The position numbers and the translations under genes were made by a program. Under the pieces are notes generated by a model, which searched no databases, had not been told where the DNA came from, and saw nothing but the letters and a program-made list of their open reading frames with translations. This document shows positions 45,353 through 49,487 of a stretch of DNA of 59,389 nt, piece after piece; position 1 is the first letter of the stretch, and every line of letters starts with the position of its first letter. Source of the DNA: Nitriliruptorales bacterium (GTDB taxonomy: Bacteria > Actinomycetota > Nitriliruptoria > Nitriliruptorales > JAHWKO01); NCBI GenBank assembly GCA_050700895.1, contig JBOHEE010000411.1:1-59389 (forward strand), given 5' to 3'.

Positions 45353-45378
45353 GCTGAGTTGACGTCGCGACACGCCCG

Positions 45379-45489
45379 CTCATCGTCTCCCGCTGGCGCG
45401 GAAGCCGGGTTTGGCACCGTCCCCGTCGCGTCCACGGGCGGTTGCCGAGGCTTCGTCGGGCCCGAGCCCTCCACCTCTCCGGATGAGTT
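45379..45489 (-). ncRNA. SAM-I (S-box) riboswitch aptamer
   Basis: The minus strand reads AACUCAUCCGGAGAGGUGGAGGGCUCGGGCCCGACGAAGCCUCGGCAACCGCCCGUGGACGCGACGGGGACGGUGCCAAACCCGGCUUCCGCGCCAGCGGGAGACGAUGAG. P1 is CUCAUC/GAUGAG. The conserved blocks GAGGG..GGCCCGA.GA.GC....GCAACC and GGUGCCAA..CC.GC are all present. Confidence 0.9.
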
Positions 45490-47153: not shown

Positions 47154-47663
47154 ATGGACGAGGTGCTCTTTCCTGGACCATCCGGACGCGATCCGACGCC
47201 GCCCAAGGCGCGCTCGAACGGCGCCAAACCGAGGCGCGAGCATCCGAAGGACGTCGGTGATACCACCACCGCGCACGTCCTCGCCCGCCTCAGCGACCGC
47301 TACCCATACGTCTACGTCCCCTGGGGCGAGAACACCCGCACCGATCTCCTCGTCGAAACCGAGGAGGGCGACTTCATCCGCATCCAGTGCAAGACGGGCC
47401 GCCTCCGCAACGGCGCCATCACGTTCCCCACCTGCAGCGTCACATACCACCACCCGAACAATCGGGGCACGGATTACTACCGCCACCACTATCGAGGACA
47501 GGCGGACCTGTTCGGTGTGTACTGTCCCGAGACCGACGCCGTCTACCTCGTTCCCGTGGATGAGGTCGGAGTCCGATCGGCGGCCCTGCGAGTCGCTCCG
47601 ACTCGGAACAACCAAGGTGCGCGGATACGTTGGGCCGAGGACTACAAACTCCCGCCGGGTTAG
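47154..47663 (+). CDS. Stand-alone PD-(D/E)XK endonuclease of the 'group I intron-associated' type
   Basis: HPKDVGDTTTAHVLARLSDRYPYVYVPWGENTRTDLLVETEEGDFIRIQCKTGRLRNGAITF...YRGQADLFGVYCPETDAVYLVPV carries the D...E.K core. GC content is lower than the flanks. The stop codon lies 10 nt inside the tRNA-Thr gene. Confidence 0.7.
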   Translation: MDEVLFPGPSGRDPTPPKARSNGAKPRREHPKDVGDTTTAHVLARLSDRYPYVYVPWGENTRTDLLVETEEGDFIRIQCKTGRLRNGAITFPTCSVTYHHPNNRGTDYYRHHYRGQADLFGVYCPETDAVYLVPVDEVGVRSAALRVAPTRNNQGARIRWAEDYKLPPG

Positions 47664-47726
47664 CTCAGTTGGCAGAGCACTCGTCTTGTAAACGAGAGCG
47701 CGCCGGTTCGATTCCGGCACCCGGCT
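47654..47726 (+). tRNA. tRNA-Thr (anticodon TGT), CCA not encoded
   Basis: GCCGGGTTAGCTCAGTTGGCAGAGCACTCGTCTTGTAAACGAGAGCGCGCCGGTTCGATTCCGGCACCCGGCT forms a 7/4/5/5 cloverleaf. Anticodon loop CTTGTAA. Confidence 0.95.
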
Positions 47727-47727
47727 C

Positions 47728-48621
47728 TCACACGGGGAAGATGCGGGCGAAGGTGTCGGCGAAGACGCCGAGGGCAACGAACCAGGTCCCGATCACGACG
47801 AGCACCCATCCGCCCCACCTCTTGACGGTTGGACCGGCCGCCCGGACCCGCTGGACCACCGCCTCCTGGGCGACCGCGACGCCGAGCGAAGCAGCGAAGA
47901 GCAGGACCACCAGGACCGCCGCGGCGACCCCGAAGGCGAAGAAGGCGACGGCGAACCCGCCCGCGGTGAGCGACTCGCCCGCCAGACCGGCGAGCATGGG
48001 ACCCGTTCAGCCGAAGCCGGCGGCGAGGTAGCCGAACCCGAAGACCGCGTTGCCGACGATCGGGCGCTCCCGGCGCAGGCGCGCCTGCCGCTTGAGGAAG
48101 CCGTGGATCGCCGGCTCGGCGGCGCGGAAGCTGATCCCGATCCGCTCGGTCTGGACGAGGCCGAGCACGATCAGCAGGCCGCCGACCACGACCCGGATGA
48201 TGCGCCCGGGCGTGCTCGTGAACGTCACCGCCCCGGCGACGCCGCCACCGCCGAGCGCGATCAGCGCGCCGAGGCCGACGACGAAGACGACTGCGCCGAC
48301 CGAGAGTGCGGTGGCGAACACGACCGCACGGCGCAGGCGCCGCCCGCGAGGCTCGTCCGCGCCGGTCTGCCGCGCGAGCAGCGAGGCGAGCAGCGGGAAG
48401 GAGCACGGCGAGAAGAAGGCCGCGAAGCCGGTCGCGCCGGCAAGAGCGAGAAGCCCGATTCCTGCCGCGCGCGGGAGATCGAACCGCGGAAAGACGACGT
48501 AGCCCACGTAGCCGGCGACGCCCGCCACCGCCACCGCCGCCGTGAGCAGCACGTAGCGGACCGCACCCGGCCCCGAGTTCCCGAGTGGGGACAGGTCACG
48601 ACGCCCCTCGGTGTCGGGCAC
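47728..48621 (-). CDS. CcdA/DsbD-family thiol-disulfide transmembrane electron-transfer protein with in-frame TGA at the second redox-Cys position (candidate selenocysteine; alternatively a nonsense pseudogene)
   Basis: Track ORFs 48007..48621 and 47728..47997 share one frame and are separated only by TGA-ACG-GGT-CCC. The first family Cys motif FFSPCSFPLL is present. The second motif reads AAGFG-[TGA]-TGPMLAG, against AGWTPCTGPILAA in B. subtilis CcdA (from memory). Confidence 0.6.
47977..47995 (-). promoter_or_regulatory. SECIS-like hairpin 12 nt downstream of the in-frame UGA
   Basis: mRNA nt 15-33 counted from the U of UGA read GCUCGCC-GGUCU-GGCGGGC. This is a 7-bp stem including one U-G pair, with loop GGUCU. 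G23/U24 and U17 fall at the same positions as in the E. coli fdhF SECIS as I recall it. Confidence 0.5.
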
Positions 48622-48725
48622 AGGCTCGCTCCGTCACGGCTCACCGCCAGTATGGAGGTTCCAGCCGCTGGAGGGTCAAATGGCGCCGACCCATCGTTCG
48701 CCTGGGACTCCGGGCGACCGACCCA

Positions 48726-49121
48726 CTACCTGCCGATGATCACGCAGACCTCGTCCTCGGTGCAGTCGGCGGGGTCGAGCTCGCTAGCCCGCGCGGCGAG
48801 CTCCTCGAGGTGCTGGCGGGTCCGTCGCAGCTCGTCGATCGCGGCGTCGACCTCGCGGATCTGCTCGTCCACCAGGGCGGTGACGTGGCCACACGGGGCG
48901 CGGCCCGCGTCACGGACCTCGAGGATGCCCCTGACCTGCGCGAGCGTGAACCCGGCGCGCTTCGCCGCATGCACGAAGTCCAGCCGACGGAGCGTCTCGT
49001 CGGCGAAGTCCCGGTACCCGCCGGCGGTCCGGCCGGGCGCGGGGATCAGGCCGATGTCCTCGTAGTAGCGGATCGTCTTCCGCGGCGTCCCGCTGCGCTC
49101 CGCCAGCTCGCCGATCAGCAC
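48726..49121 (-). CDS. MerR-family (heavy-metal-sensor-like) transcriptional regulator
   Basis: LIGELAERSGTPRKTIRYYEDIGLIP...GYRDF is the MerR HTH. A coiled-coil dimerisation helix follows. Three Cys (positions 77, 120 and 126 by my count) sit where metal-binding MerR/ZntR-type proteins carry ligands. GTG start at 49121. Confidence 0.88.
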   Translation of the reverse strand: MLIGELAERSGTPRKTIRYYEDIGLIPAPGRTAGGYRDFADETLRRLDFVHAAKRAGFTLAQVRGILEVRDAGRAPCGHVTALVDEQIREVDAAIDELRRTRQHLEELAARASELDPADCTEDEVCVIIGR

Positions 49122-49159
49122 GTGTCACCTCCGGCTTGACGTGTCACCTCCGGCTTGAC
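49122..49159. repeat. Perfect 19-bp tandem duplication abutting the merR-family start codon
   Basis: GTGTCACCTCCGGCTTGAC occurs at 49122..49140 and again at 49141..49159. Each copy holds the minus-strand GGAGG Shine-Dalgarno and a plus-strand CTTGAC hexamer. Confidence 0.9.
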
Positions 49160-49186
49160 CTTCCAGCTTACTGGAGGGTCCACACT
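49155..49186 (+). promoter_or_regulatory. MerR-type long-spacer promoter/operator for the thioredoxin-fold gene
   Basis: -35 TTGACC (49155..49160). An imperfect palindrome CCTTCCAG-CTTA-CTGGAGGG (49159..49178) sits inside a 19-20-nt spacer. The -10-like element is CACACT (49181..49186). The ATG at 49194 implies a leaderless or near-leaderless mRNA. Confidence 0.55.
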
Positions 49187-49193
49187 CCGCGGC

Positions 49194-49487
49194 ATGGACA
49201 TCACCGTGCTGCACGTGGACCAGTGCCCGAACACCGACGTCGCCCTCGCGAGACTCGACGACGTGCTCAAGCGGATCGGACGCGACGACGTCCGGGTGCT
49301 GACGCAACTCGTCGACTCCGAGCAGCAAGCCGAGGAATGCGGCCTCCGCGGCTCGCCGACGATCCTCGTCGACGGCATCGACGTCTCGAGCCCGCCGGGC
49401 ACGCCGATCATGTTCGCCTGCCGGGCCGGCCGGCCCGAGGACATCGTGCCGTCGGTCGACGAGCTCCTCCGCGCCCTCGGCGGCTAG
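49194..49487 (+). CDS. Small thioredoxin/glutaredoxin-fold protein with monothiol CPNT motif
   Basis: MDITVLHVDQCPNTDVALARL...CGLRGSPTILVDGIDV shows a beta-alpha-beta start, a CxxT active-site-like motif and a cis-Pro-type GSPT(I/L)LVDG. ATG 49194 is preferred over the track start at 49155. Confidence 0.55.
   Translation: MDITVLHVDQCPNTDVALARLDDVLKRIGRDDVRVLTQLVDSEQQAEECGLRGSPTILVDGIDVSSPPGTPIMFACRAGRPEDIVPSVDELLRALGG

What the first reader, a model, noticed from the sequence alone, without database searches (positions are those of the whole stretch)
47728..48621. In-frame UGA replaces the second redox cysteine of a CcdA/DsbD-family membrane protein and is followed by an fdhF-like SECIS hairpin: candidate selenoprotein
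- **Gene structure.** Track ORFs 48007..48621 and 47728..47997 are in the same minus-strand frame. They are separated only by TGA (48009..48007)-ACG-GGT-CCC. Joined, they give one protein of about 297 codons of the CcdA/DsbD type.
- **Cys/Sec signature.** The first family cysteine is present (FFSPCSFPLL). The second family motif, remembered from B. subtilis CcdA as AGWTPCTGPILAA, reads here AAGFG-[TGA]-TGPMLAG. The stop codon therefore sits exactly on the second redox-active Cys column, which is the classic Cys/Sec signature.
- **Hairpin.** Counting the U of UGA as 1, nt 15-33 (47995..47977) fold as GCUCGCC-GGUCU-GGCGGGC. This puts G22 G23 U24 C25 U26 in the loop and U17 in the 5' arm. These are the same bases at the same distances as in the E. 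coli fdhF SECIS as I recall it (UGA CAC GGC CCA UCG GUU GCA GGU CUG CAC C).
- **Codon usage.** The loop Gly codon is GGU, which looks unusual in this GC3-saturated gene set.
- **Alternative.** It could be an ordinary nonsense mutation. However, the other lesions in this window are all frameshifts, whereas this is a clean in-frame codon at a catalytic position with both halves intact.
- **Novelty.** I am not aware of a characterised Sec-containing CcdA.
Basis: partly seen in the sequence, partly recalled or inferred. Interest (0 to 1): 0.85.

Follow-up and report, generated by a model that had tools for sequence, protein, structure and literature searches.

The report
Selenocysteine in a metal-regulated CcdA-like membrane protein
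The "stop codon" in this membrane-protein gene almost certainly encodes selenocysteine, and it reveals a widespread, apparently uncatalogued, metal-regulated selenoprotein family that annotation pipelines routinely cut short.

Summary

- **Conserved UGA.** The in-frame TGA at 48009..48007 (minus strand) is TGA in all 81 orthologues examined, from at least five phyla. It is never TAA or TAG. True terminal stops are mixed.
- **Translated downstream part.** An open 92-codon tail follows, with coding periodicity and a conserved ...FPV end.
- **SECIS hairpin.** A hairpin 17-31 nt after the U of UGA has a near-invariant GGUCU loop, frozen synonymous sites and compensatory changes in 5 of 6 pairs. 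Its loop sits at the same distance as in E. coli fdhF. The hairpin closely matches, at the same distance, that of Sec-type fdhA genes next to this gene in six genomes.
- **Cys forms.** The rarer homologues carry TGC at this column. In them the hairpin is decaying.
- **Family.** The protein is only a remote CcdA relative: 7 predicted TM segments, Cys73 in TM1 and Sec205 in TM4.
- **Regulation.** It sits behind a MerR-type promoter and regulator. In about 10% of lineages an N-terminal heavy-metal-binding domain is fused to it.
- **Function (inferred).** I read it as a soft-metal-inducible Cys/Sec membrane relay, more likely a metal shuttle than a cytochrome c maturation factor.
- **Novelty.** It is absent from the 2026 selenoprotein catalogues and from NCBIfam.
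- **Gap.** Sec machinery could not be checked in this MAG.

The parts
47728..48621 (-). Complete selenoprotein gene: 297 codons plus stop, GTG start at 48621. It encodes a CcdA-like membrane protein with 7 predicted TM segments, Cys73 in TM1 and Sec205 in TM4.
   Evidence: Searches give the frame. Searches give the homologues. Searches show the 92-codon tail is conserved and coding. One search gives the hydropathy and positive-inside pattern.
48007..48009 (-). UGA codon read as selenocysteine (codon 205).
   Evidence: TGA in 81/81 orthologues. TGC in Cys-form homologues. A JGI product showing 'W' here is TGA in the DNA.
47977..47995 (-). Bacterial SECIS hairpin. Stem arms are 47995..47989 and 47983..47977. 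The loop GGUCU is 47988..47984, nt 22-26 from the U of UGA.
   Evidence: Searches show covariation. Searches show frozen synonymous sites. One search shows the same loop and spacing as E. coli fdhF and as Sec-type fdhA in six related loci.
48649..48679 (-). MerR-type promoter/operator just upstream of the gene: TTGACC, then a 19-nt spacer with the dyad CTCCAG-CGG-CTGGAA, then CATACT.
   Evidence: The same box type lies upstream of the gene in 38/81 loci. It resembles E. coli PcopA TTGACCTTCCCCTTGCTGGAAGGTTTAACCT.
48726..49121 (-). MerR-family soft-metal-responsive regulator, with Cys at the CueR-Ser77 position plus C120 and C126.
   Evidence: CueR, CadR, MerR and ZntR models at 83-89 bits, all below their cut-offs; a homologue is adjacent in 40/81 loci; 34/35 have Cys at position 77.
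49155..49186 (+). Second MerR-type box (TTGACC-TTCCAG-CTTA-CTGGAGGG-...CACACT), facing the divergent small gene.
49194..49487 (+). Small DF-family protein in its Cys form (DQCPN); I take it to be thioredoxin-like, a reading no tool confirmed (no Pfam hit). It is divergent from the regulator. The listed ORF starts at 49155, but the likely start is the ATG at 49194.
   Evidence: NF049942 'DF family (seleno)protein', 48.6 bits against a cut-off of 70; present in 13 loci near the gene.

Best explanation
47728..48621 (minus strand) is one gene for a selenoprotein.

**Decoding.** UGA-205 is decoded as selenocysteine by the standard bacterial route (SelB with Sec-tRNA). A SECIS hairpin 17-31 nt downstream, with apical loop GGUCU, directs this.

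**The protein.**
- It is a distant member of the CcdA/DsbD-TM superfamily.
- It has an extra N-terminal TM segment, giving N-terminus inside and C-terminus outside.
- It carries one Cys in TM1 (FFSPC73SFPLL) and Sec in TM4 (GFG-U205-TGP), the two positions of the CcdA active pair.

**Regulation.** The gene is switched on by an adjacent MerR-family sensor of the divalent soft-metal type. The sensor acts through a 19-nt-spacer promoter just upstream.

**Function (inferred).** The Cys/Sec pair is alternately exposed on the two sides of the membrane.
- Most likely it carries a thiophilic metal ion (Hg(II)/Cd(II)/Cu-type) between cytoplasmic HMA or thioredoxin-like partners and the outside.
- The second possibility is that it relays reducing equivalents outward as a selenylsulfide, for envelope repair under metal stress.
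- It is not a housekeeping cytochrome c maturation factor.

**Shown:** conserved UGA, Cys/Sec pairing, coding tail, covarying SECIS, MerR box and regulator, HMA fusions.

**Inferred:** SelB dependence in this genome, topology, metal specificity, direction and substrate of transport.
For: **Recoding.**
- TGA in 81/81 orthologues from Actinomycetota, Chloroflexota, Acidobacteriota, Gemmatimonadota and Proteobacteria, at 40-66% identity.
- The real stops are mixed.
- The 92-codon tail is of conserved length and ends ...FPV. Codon-position entropies are 0.98, 0.68 and 1.44 bits.
- There is no conserved start codon after the UGA: nt 13-15 is an Ile codon (ATC or ATT) in most, and ATG only in the window.
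- Cys forms carry TGC.

**SECIS.**
- 93.8% of cells are paired, 5/6 pairs have compensatory changes, and 0/500 shuffles reach this. RNAalifold finds the same stem.
- Third codon positions inside the hairpin have 0.12-0.67 bits of entropy against 0.89-1.93 in the flanks.
- Paired Ala>Val and Ala>Thr changes keep the helix.
- Six loci have a Sec-type fdhA (CNRT-UGA-HAPSVAGL) with GUCGCC-GGUCU-GGCGGC at the same spacing.
- E. coli fdhF has the same loop position.
- In five Cys forms, 3/5 break pair 19-29 (0/82 in Sec forms) and 2/5 have GGC in the loop.
- tRNA-Sec lies 5.5 kb from the gene in L077.

**Family size.** 804 clusters at 50% identity match. Of the best 150 representatives, 63 end exactly before the Sec column and 18 read through with Cys.

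**Context.**
- A MerR regulator is adjacent in 40/81 loci.
- The MerR box is present in 38/81 loci including the window.
- 34/35 regulators have Cys at the CueR-S77 position.
- HMA domains (PF00403) are fused N-terminally.
- Neighbours include a P1B ATPase, MerA, MerB-like, TlpA-like, DUF3179 and DF-family proteins.

**Fold.** The top Foldseek hit is CcdA 5VKV, probability 0.95.
Against: - No selA, selB, selD or tRNA-Sec is in the 59-kb window or in the 80 flanks, apart from one tRNA-Sec. The rest of this MAG could not be searched.
- Rfam SECIS models do not hit. Those models cover other lineages.
- The single-sequence fold energy is unremarkable.
- CcdA membership is weak: no Pfam hit for the window protein, no PDB sequence hit, and TM-score only 0.33-0.40 on a model of pLDDT 72.
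- Metal specificity and transport versus redox relay are not resolved. Only one neighbour passes the MerA cut-off. Sec's very high affinity for Hg or Cu could also poison a redox site.
- Every carrier found in the genome collection (the 80 loci) is a metagenome-derived or uncultured assembly, and the other homologues come from metagenome assemblies. Nothing is experimentally anchored.
Confidence: 0.86

Rival explanations
1. Ordinary nonsense mutation, pseudogene or assembly error in this MAG: the gene is dead and the hairpin is coincidental.
For: A single in-frame stop in a MAG contig. NCBI annotates only the 204-aa N-terminal part.
Against: - The same codon is TGA in 81/81 divergent orthologues, with an intact and conserved tail.
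- The identical truncated product is listed from both NCBI and Logan sources for the same contig.
- The hairpin covaries.
Confidence: 0.01
2. UGA is a true stop. The locus makes a 204-aa protein, and the tail is a separate small protein or is translationally coupled. The hairpin serves termination, reinitiation or mRNA stability.
For: The window has an ATG four codons after the TGA. Gene callers split the locus everywhere.
Against: - The ATG is unique to the window. Most orthologues have an Ile codon (ATC or ATT) there and no start codon.
- The stop is never TAA or TAG.
- Cys forms are single uninterrupted ORFs.
- The hairpin closely matches the fdhA SECIS of the same genomes.
- A split would separate TM1-3 from TM4-6 of one fold.
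Confidence: 0.03
3. UGA is recoded, but not to Sec. Candidates are hairpin-stimulated near-cognate read-through as Trp or Cys, or a lineage-specific UGA reassignment.
For: Sec machinery is not demonstrated for this genome. One database product shows W at this column.
Against: - The W product is a gene-calling artefact over a TGA.
- The carriers span at least five phyla that use TGA as their commonest true stop.
- Homologues have Cys, the classic Sec partner.
- The hairpin matches a known SelB-binding SECIS in loop and spacing.
- Sec-type fdhA and tRNA-Sec occur beside the gene.
Confidence: 0.04
4. It is a real selenoprotein, but its job is the classical CcdA one: a reductant relay. Electrons would pass from NAD(P)H via an FAD disulfide reductase and a cytoplasmic thioredoxin-like protein, through the Cys73-Sec205 selenylsulfide, to an extracytoplasmic TlpA/ResA-like oxidoreductase. 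The relay would be induced by soft metals to repair the envelope. It would not transport metal.
For: - Both CcdA active-site positions are kept, and the top structural hit is CcdA.
- TlpA/ResA-like proteins (10 loci), DF-family small proteins (13 loci) and FAD disulfide reductases below the MerA cut-off (about 10 loci) are nearby.
- From my own knowledge, DsbD-like ScsB supports copper tolerance in enterobacteria.
Against: - A cytoplasmic HMA metal-binding domain is fused to the N-terminus in several lineages.
- No extracytoplasmic partner is consistently adjacent.
- No cytochrome c maturation gene family appeared among the recurrent neighbour clusters.
- Other Sec-containing transport proteins in the catalogue are metal handlers.
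- There is weak near-full-length similarity to the arsenical efflux permease ArsG.
Confidence: 0.35

Closest known systems
E. coli fdhF (formate dehydrogenase H) UGA and SECIS, and Sec-type FdhA in general
   Same: - An in-frame UGA is followed by a hairpin whose apical loop GGUCU occupies nt 22-26 from the U of UGA.
- Even the peptide is similar: U-x-G-P-x-x-A-G-L.
- The fdhA genes next to this gene in six genomes carry a closely similar hairpin with the same GGUCU loop at the same distance.
   Different: - The protein family is unrelated.
- U17 is bulged in fdhF (my knowledge of the literature). Here it pairs with G31 or A31.
- The conserved stem is a short GC-rich helix of 5-7 bp.
CcdA / DsbD transmembrane domain (Pfam PF02683; T. 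thermophilus CcdA, PDB 5VKV)
   Same: - A polytopic membrane protein with one active-site residue in TM1 (FSPC-x-x-P) and one in TM4 (x-C/U-TGP-I/L-L).
- It is the top Foldseek hit.
- Some family members reach PF02683.
   Different: - Sec replaces the TM4 Cys, and the Pro before it is replaced by Gly (GFG-U).
- There is an extra N-terminal TM segment.
- The window protein gets no Pfam or PDB sequence match.
- It is under MerR-type metal control and carries HMA fusions instead of a cytochrome c maturation context.
Sec-containing metal-handling proteins already catalogued: putative mercuric transport protein MerT (PF02411, C/SxxU), the SO_0444 Cu/Zn efflux transporter, a P1B ATPase with UxxC, and the TsoB rhodanese/DsbD-fusion selenoprotein (NF045694)
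   Same: Sec replaces a Cys in a membrane or metal-binding protein linked to heavy-metal resistance (review PMC13188914).
   Different: - No sequence relationship. NCBIfam release 20 gives no hit to any of these models for this protein.
- TsoB is catalogued with a UxxxxU motif and two Sec residues, whereas this family has a single Sec in the GFG-U-TGP motif.
- This family is not among the 119 families of the 2026 catalogue.
Actinomycete mer-operon 'mercury transporter' proteins annotated with CcdA and TrxA domains
   Same: A CcdA-like membrane protein of about 300 aa and a Trx-like protein of about 175 aa are listed as Hg transport components in actinomycetes (PMC12195606 Table 4). The TlpA-like and CcdA-like pairs in some loci here are comparable.
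   Different: - Those are Cys proteins.
- A tblastn search of 72,556 plasmids with this protein found nothing, so there is no close homology.
- Their transport role is itself annotation-level.
E. coli CueR/PcopA and other MerR-family metal switches
   Same: - A -35 TTGACC, a 19-nt spacer containing the dyad CCTTCC...GGAAGG, and a -10 TAnnnT.
- The regulator is 30% identical to CueR.
   Different: The regulator has Cys where CueR has Ser77, in 34/35 cases. By the literature as I know it, this marks sensors of divalent rather than monovalent metals. The C-terminal Cys spacing also differs.

Membership tests
Bacterial selenoprotein (SelB/SECIS-dependent UGA recoding) | In-frame UGA conserved across orthologues, never another stop codon | tested here: met
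   81/81 are TGA. True terminal stops are TGA 42, TAG 32, TAA 4.
Bacterial selenoprotein (SelB/SECIS-dependent UGA recoding) | Cys-containing homologues align Cys with the UGA | tested here: met
   Full-length homologues read GFG-C-TGPIL, with TGC in the DNA. 18 Cys forms against 63 truncated forms among the best 150 cluster representatives.
Bacterial selenoprotein (SelB/SECIS-dependent UGA recoding) | Sequence downstream of the UGA is conserved as coding sequence in the same frame | tested here: met
   A 92-codon tail in most, ending ...FPV. Entropy by codon position is 0.98, 0.68 and 1.44 bits. Mean pairwise identity is 51%.
Bacterial selenoprotein (SelB/SECIS-dependent UGA recoding) | SECIS stem-loop a short distance 3' of the UGA, with conserved G/U in the apical loop and supported by covariation | tested here: met
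   - The stem is nt 17-21/27-31, up to 15-33 in the window.
- The loop GGUCU is near-invariant.
- Five of six pairs show compensatory changes, and 0/500 shuffles reach this.
- The loop matches fdhF and the neighbouring fdhA genes.
- Rfam's SECIS models do not hit.
Bacterial selenoprotein (SelB/SECIS-dependent UGA recoding) | selA, selB, selC and selD present in the same genome | not testable with these tools
- Indirect support comes from other carriers: tRNA-Sec in L077 (58 bits) and Sec-type fdhA in six loci.
Bacterial selenoprotein (SelB/SECIS-dependent UGA recoding) | Selenium found in the protein (75Se labelling or mass spectrometry) | not testable with these tools
   Needs experiment. Every carrier found in the genome collection is a metagenome-derived or uncultured assembly.
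CcdA / DsbD_TM (PF02683) | Significant match to the family profile | tested here: not met
   - The window protein (U replaced by C) has no Pfam family at E <= 0.1.
- 3 of 27 orthologues hit PF02683, best E 4e-6.
- A minority of database homologues carry a precomputed PF02683 hit.
- So it is a remote relative, not a member by the curated threshold.
CcdA / DsbD_TM (PF02683) | Six-TM core with the two active residues in TM1 and TM4 (pseudo-symmetric halves) | tested here: inconclusive
   - Hydropathy and positive-inside counts fit TM0 plus six TM segments, with Cys73 in TM1 and U205 in the Gly-rich TM4.
- The AF2 model of a Cys homologue has pLDDT 72.
- Foldseek's top hit is 5VKV at probability 0.95, but with E 0.11 and TM-score 0.33-0.40.
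CcdA / DsbD_TM (PF02683) | Works with a cytoplasmic thioredoxin donor and an extracytoplasmic Trx-like acceptor, often in a cytochrome c maturation context | tested here: inconclusive
   - TlpA/ResA-like genes are in 10 loci and DF-family genes in 13.
- No cytochrome c maturation family was among the recurrent neighbours.
- The biochemistry is untested.
ArsG organoarsenical efflux permease (NF040495) | Score above the curated cut-off of 200 bits | tested here: not met
   24.3 bits, E 1.7e-5, though over nearly the whole profile (39-222 of 225).
TsoB rhodanese/DsbD-fusion selenoprotein (NF045694) and other NCBIfam selenoprotein models | Match to the model | tested here: not met
   The CcdA-like protein gets no hit at E <= 0.1.
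MerR-family metal-responsive switch (regulator plus long-spacer promoter) | MerR-type HTH regulator adjacent, a dyad operator inside a 19-20-nt spacer between -35 and -10, and conserved metal-binding Cys | tested here: met
   - The regulator scores 83-89 bits against the CueR, CadR, MerR and ZntR models. All are below their equivalog cut-offs, so the metal is unassigned.
- Boxes are at 48679..48649 and 49155..49186, and the box is present in 38/81 loci.
- Cys is at the CueR-S77 position in 34/35 and at the CueR-C120 position in 33/35 regulators.

The most novel reading that the evidence does not exclude
The CcdA fold has been repurposed from electron transfer to metal transfer. A selenolate/thiolate pair buried in the membrane (Sec205/Cys73) would bind Hg(II)-, Cd(II)- or Cu-type ions and shuttle them across by alternating access. 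It would hand them to or from a cytoplasmic HMA domain, under control of a MerR-type sensor. This would be the first selenium-based intramembrane metal-transport site in the CcdA fold. It would also be a Sec-dominant family: truncated Sec forms outnumber read-through Cys forms 63 to 18 among the best 150 cluster representatives. It is spread over at least five phyla of uncultured bacteria.
Probability: 0.4. Interest if true: 0.75.

Novelty: new member of a known kind. Interest (0 to 1): 0.62.

Why it matters
1. **A new entry for the selenoproteome.**
   - The profile matches 804 clusters at 50% identity, which include more distant Cys-containing relatives.
   - The 2026 catalogue of 119 families, BSepDB, deep-Sep and NCBIfam release 20 do not contain it.
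   - It would be a polytopic membrane selenoprotein with Sec inside a TM helix.
2. **Systematic mis-annotation.** Public annotation truncates it to a roughly 195-aa 'CcdA' or 'hypothetical protein'. One pipeline even translated the UGA as Trp. A profile for it would correct hundreds of gene models.
3. **Sec forms dominate and are tied to a metal sensor.** Truncated Sec forms outnumber Cys forms about 3.5 to 1 among the nearest clusters, and they sit behind a MerR-type soft-metal sensor. This makes testable the question of why selenium is chosen over sulfur where thiophilic metals are handled.
4. **A ready assay.** The SECIS shares the loop and spacing of E. coli fdhF, so read-through could be tested directly in E. 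coli.

Tried and rejected
- **Rfam SECIS and other models on 47900-48100.** Only noise.
- **Single-sequence folding statistics.** Not informative in 71% GC DNA.
- **tblastn with E. coli SelA, SelB and SelD against the window and all 80 loci.** No hits. A tRNA scan found tRNA-Sec only in L077. A 95-nt 'tRNA-Gly(tcc)' in L073 was not confirmed by Rfam.
- **PDB sequence searches with two family profiles.** Nothing relevant.
- **tblastn against 72,556 plasmids.** No match, so no link to plasmid-borne actinomycete mer transporters.
- **Structure prediction of the joined window protein.** I used the Cys homologue P0002 instead.
- **A mer-operon reading.**
  - I first took the 'MerA-like' neighbours as evidence for one.
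  - NCBIfam showed only L033 passes the MerA cut-off. The other four checked are generic FAD disulfide reductases.
  - The MerB-like proteins are also below their cut-offs.
  - I therefore downgraded 'mercury-specific' to 'soft-metal'.
- **Literature.** Searches for selenoprotein with CcdA, DsbD or cytochrome c biogenesis found no prior description. Haft & Tolstoy 2025 (PMC12013261) and the BSepDB supplement were not available.
- **The GGU-rarity argument.** I rejected it as primary evidence, since GGT is 10.7% of Gly codons.
Full report
**1. The observation**

On the minus strand, an ORF starting with GTG at 48621 ends ...AAGFG-TGA at 48009..48007. The same frame continues ACG GGT CCC ATG CTC GCC GGT CTG GCG GGC GAG... 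to the stop at 47730..47728. This gives 297 codons with the TGA as codon 205. FFSPCSFPLL (Cys73) is present.

Nt 15-33 counted from the U of UGA (47995..47977) form GCUCGCC-GGUCU-GGCGGGC. This is also the centroid structure of the 48-nt stretch. That fold is not unusual for a 71% GC sequence (z = -0.21), so a single sequence proves nothing. The case rests on comparison.

**2. The UGA is conserved**

A protein search with the joined sequence found 353 relatives.
- Most are 191-204 aa and all end ...GFG. These are gene calls truncated at the same column.
- A minority are 281-310 aa and read GFG-C-TGPIL.

I fetched 80 genomic loci from species-representative genomes. They come from Actinomycetota (including Acidimicrobiia, Nitriliruptorales and Gaiellaceae), Chloroflexota, Acidobacteriota, Gemmatimonadota and a few Proteobacteria, at 40-66% identity.
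- In all 80, and in the window, the codon is TGA.
- The genuine stop codons of the same genes are TGA 42, TAG 32 and TAA 4.
- A JGI product with 'W' at this column is TGA in its DNA. It is a gene-calling artefact.

**3. The tail is translated**

- After the TGA, the frame stays open for exactly 92 codons in most loci and ends ...FPV.
- Across 62 ungapped sequences, entropy by codon position is 0.98, 0.68 and 1.44 bits. This is the signature of coding selection. Mean pairwise amino-acid identity is 51%, similar to the 56% just upstream.
- The ATG four codons after the TGA is unique to the window. Most orthologues have an Ile codon (ATC or ATT) there, so the tail has no conserved start of its own.

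**4. The hairpin is a SECIS**

- The loop GGUCU (nt 22-26) is almost invariant: G22 80/81, G23 81/81, U24 80/81, C25 80/81, U26 81/81.
- Third codon positions inside the hairpin (nt 18, 21, 24, 27, 30) have 0.12-0.67 bits of entropy. Flanking third positions have 0.89-1.93 bits.
- For the six-pair stem 16-21/27-32, 93.8% of cells pair, against at most 49% in slid controls. Five pairs show changes on both sides, and no shuffle of 500 reaches this.
- RNAalifold independently returns pairs 17-31 to 21-27.
- Some compensatory changes alter the protein on both sides to keep the helix, for example Ala>Val with Ala>Thr (CUGGUC...GACCGG).
- E. coli fdhF, read from NC_000913.3, is TGACACGGCCCATCGGTTGCAGGTCTGCACC.
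- Six loci carry a formate dehydrogenase gene 0.3-4.8 kb from this gene. It has the canonical ...SCNRT-UGA-HAPSVAGL and the hairpin GUCGCC-GGUCU-GGCGGC at the same distance. This is an in-genome positive control: those organisms decode UGA as Sec with this type of element.
- One difference from fdhF: U17 is paired (U-G 60, U-A 19; C-G in the other 2) rather than bulged.
- In the whole window, on both strands, this is the only TGA followed by such a hairpin.
- Rfam's SECIS models give nothing. That is uninformative, because they cover other lineages.

**5. Constraint is relaxed when Sec is lost**

Five Cys-form genes were read at the DNA level (TGC).
- Three break pair 19-29, which is never broken in 82 Sec forms.
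- Two have GGC instead of GGU in the loop.

These Cys forms are few and partly related to each other. The direction is still what a SECIS predicts.

**6. Sec machinery**

- No selA, selB or selD was found by tblastn in the window or in the 80 flanks.
- There is no tRNA-Sec in the window.
- A tRNA-Sec (Rfam 58 bits, gathering score 47) lies 5.5 kb from the gene in L077.
- The rest of this MAG could not be reached. This is the main open point for this particular genome.

**7. What the protein is**

- The window protein has no Pfam hit at E <= 0.1. In NCBIfam it has only a weak, near-full-length match to the arsenical efflux permease ArsG (24 bits against a cut-off of 200).
- Only 3 of 27 orthologues touch PF02683 DsbD_TM.
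- PDB sequence searches are empty.
- An AlphaFold model of the Cys homologue P0002 (pLDDT 72) has CcdA 5VKV as its only notable Foldseek hit: probability 0.95, E 0.11, TM-score 0.33-0.40, 25% identity.
- Hydropathy and positive-inside counts suggest an N-terminal TM0 followed by six TM segments. The K/R-rich loops at 80-101, about 160-189 and 253-272 would be inside. The N-terminus would be inside and the C-terminus outside. Cys73 would lie in TM1 and U205 in the Gly-rich TM4.

It is therefore a remote CcdA-superfamily protein that keeps both active-site positions. It is not a canonical CcdA.

**8. Context**

*Regulator and promoter.*
- A MerR-family regulator is adjacent in 40/81 loci. In the window it is 48726..49121.
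- A MerR-type promoter lies directly upstream of the gene in 38/81 loci. Its form is TTGACC-TTCCAG-N4-CTGGAAGG-..-TAnnnT with a 19-nt spacer.
- In the window this box is at 48679..48649, with a second box at 49155..49186 facing the divergent small gene.
- It is the same type as E. coli PcopA, verified as TTGACCTTCCCCTTGCTGGAAGGTTTAACCT.
- 34/35 regulators have Cys where CueR has Ser77, and 33/35 have Cys at the position of CueR Cys120. By the literature as I know it, Cys at position 77 marks sensors of divalent soft metals.

*Neighbours and fusions.*
- Recurrent neighbours are a DF-family small protein (NF049942, a family with Sec members; window 49194..49487), P1B ATPases, TlpA/ResA-like proteins, DUF3179, ArsR, MerB-like proteins and FAD disulfide reductases.
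- Only L033 has a protein that passes the MerA cut-off.
- HMA domains (PF00403) are fused to the N-terminus in several loci and cluster representatives. That terminus is cytoplasmic only by the predicted topology of section 7.
- DUF7482 is fused to the C-terminus in two loci.
- The Cys forms sit beside the same regulator, and four of the five read at the DNA level show the same type of box.

**9. Mechanism**

*Shown:* a conserved, SECIS-equipped Sec codon at one of the two CcdA active positions, and MerR-type control.

*Inferred:* the Cys73/Sec205 pair is exposed alternately on either side of the membrane.
- I favour metal hand-over, at about 0.4-0.5. The reasons are the HMA fusions, the metal sensor, the precedent of Sec in catalogued metal transporters (PMC13188914) and the ArsG-like similarity.
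- Against this stands a selenylsulfide reductant relay to TlpA-like partners, at about 0.35.
- A cytochrome c maturation role has no support in the neighbourhoods.

**10. Novelty**

- The 2026 review lists 119 prokaryotic selenoprotein families. None is PF02683- or CcdA-type. The nearest are TsoB (a rhodanese/DsbD fusion), a MerT-like protein and SO_0444.
- BSepDB and deep-Sep do not mention CcdA or DsbD.
- NCBIfam release 20 has no model for it.
- NCBI and JGI name the truncated products 'CcdA' or hypothetical.
- A full-library profile search finds 804 clusters at 50% identity. Among the best 150, 63 end exactly before the Sec column and 18 read through with Cys.
- Caveats: Haft & Tolstoy 2025 and the BSepDB supplement could not be read. 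Every carrier found in the genome collection is a metagenome-derived or uncultured assembly.

**Verdict**

This is a genuine selenoprotein gene, with confidence of about 0.9 for the family. Confidence is slightly lower for this genome until its sel genes are seen. The mechanism of recoding is entirely standard. The family and its metal-regulated membrane setting appear new.

Noticed in passing
window 45377-45489 (-): SAM riboswitch (RF00162, 62.5 bits, gathering score 44.4). It is unrelated to the finding.
   Followed up: no
window 47654-47727 (+): tRNA-Thr(TGT) is convergent with the selenoprotein gene. Its 3' end directly abuts the gene's stop codon at 47728..47730, with no intergenic base. 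An unannotated 169-aa ORF at 47154..47663 (+) runs into the tRNA.
   Followed up: no
window 49121-49158: A perfect 19-bp tandem duplication, CGTGTCACCTCCGGCTTGA x2, lies between the regulator's start codon and the second MerR box. It duplicates a TTGAC -35-like element. Its significance is unknown.
   Followed up: partly
window 49194-49487 (+), and 13 related loci: The divergent small protein belongs to NF049942, the 'DF family (seleno)protein'. That family was only recently reported as a selenoprotein, in Desulfosediminicola flagellatus (a member of the Desulfobacterota). Here it is the Cys form (DQCPN). DUF3179 and MerB-like neighbours also belong to families that have Sec members, so these loci collect Sec-prone families.
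   Followed up: partly
L028, L031, L035, L038, L039, L054 (0.3-4.8 kb downstream of the CcdA-like gene): Formate dehydrogenase alpha genes are split by gene callers at the canonical Sec codon (CNRT-TGA-HAPSVAGL). Their SECIS shares the GGUCU loop and spacing and a closely similar stem with that of the CcdA-like gene.
   Followed up: yes
L077 4474-4564 (+): tRNA-Sec (Rfam 58 bits) lies 5.5 kb upstream of the CcdA-like selenoprotein gene in a Kiloniellaceae MAG.
   Followed up: yes
L084 (JGI Ga0597029_0095220), protein P0016: The public protein product has Trp at the Sec column and an N-terminal HMA domain. The DNA has TGA, so the contig was most likely gene-called under a genetic code that reads TGA as Trp. 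This kind of artefact can hide selenoproteins.
   Followed up: yes
L023 and L064, C-terminus of the orthologue: An extracytoplasmic DUF7482 domain of about 160 aa (127 bits) is fused after the ...FPV end of the selenoprotein in two loci.
   Followed up: partly
L073 4738-4832 (+): ARAGORN calls a 95-nt 'tRNA-Gly(tcc)' with the anticodon at position 36. No Rfam tRNA or tRNA-Sec hit reached gathering score there. It is possibly a false call or an odd long-arm tRNA.
   Followed up: partly
L017, about 870 bp downstream of the Sec codon (- strand): A different MerR-type box, TTGACTCTGGACATGACTCCAGAGTTTACGGT, looks like a ZntR-type box (from memory, not checked). It lies near the same gene cluster, which suggests several metal switches in one locus.
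   Followed up: no
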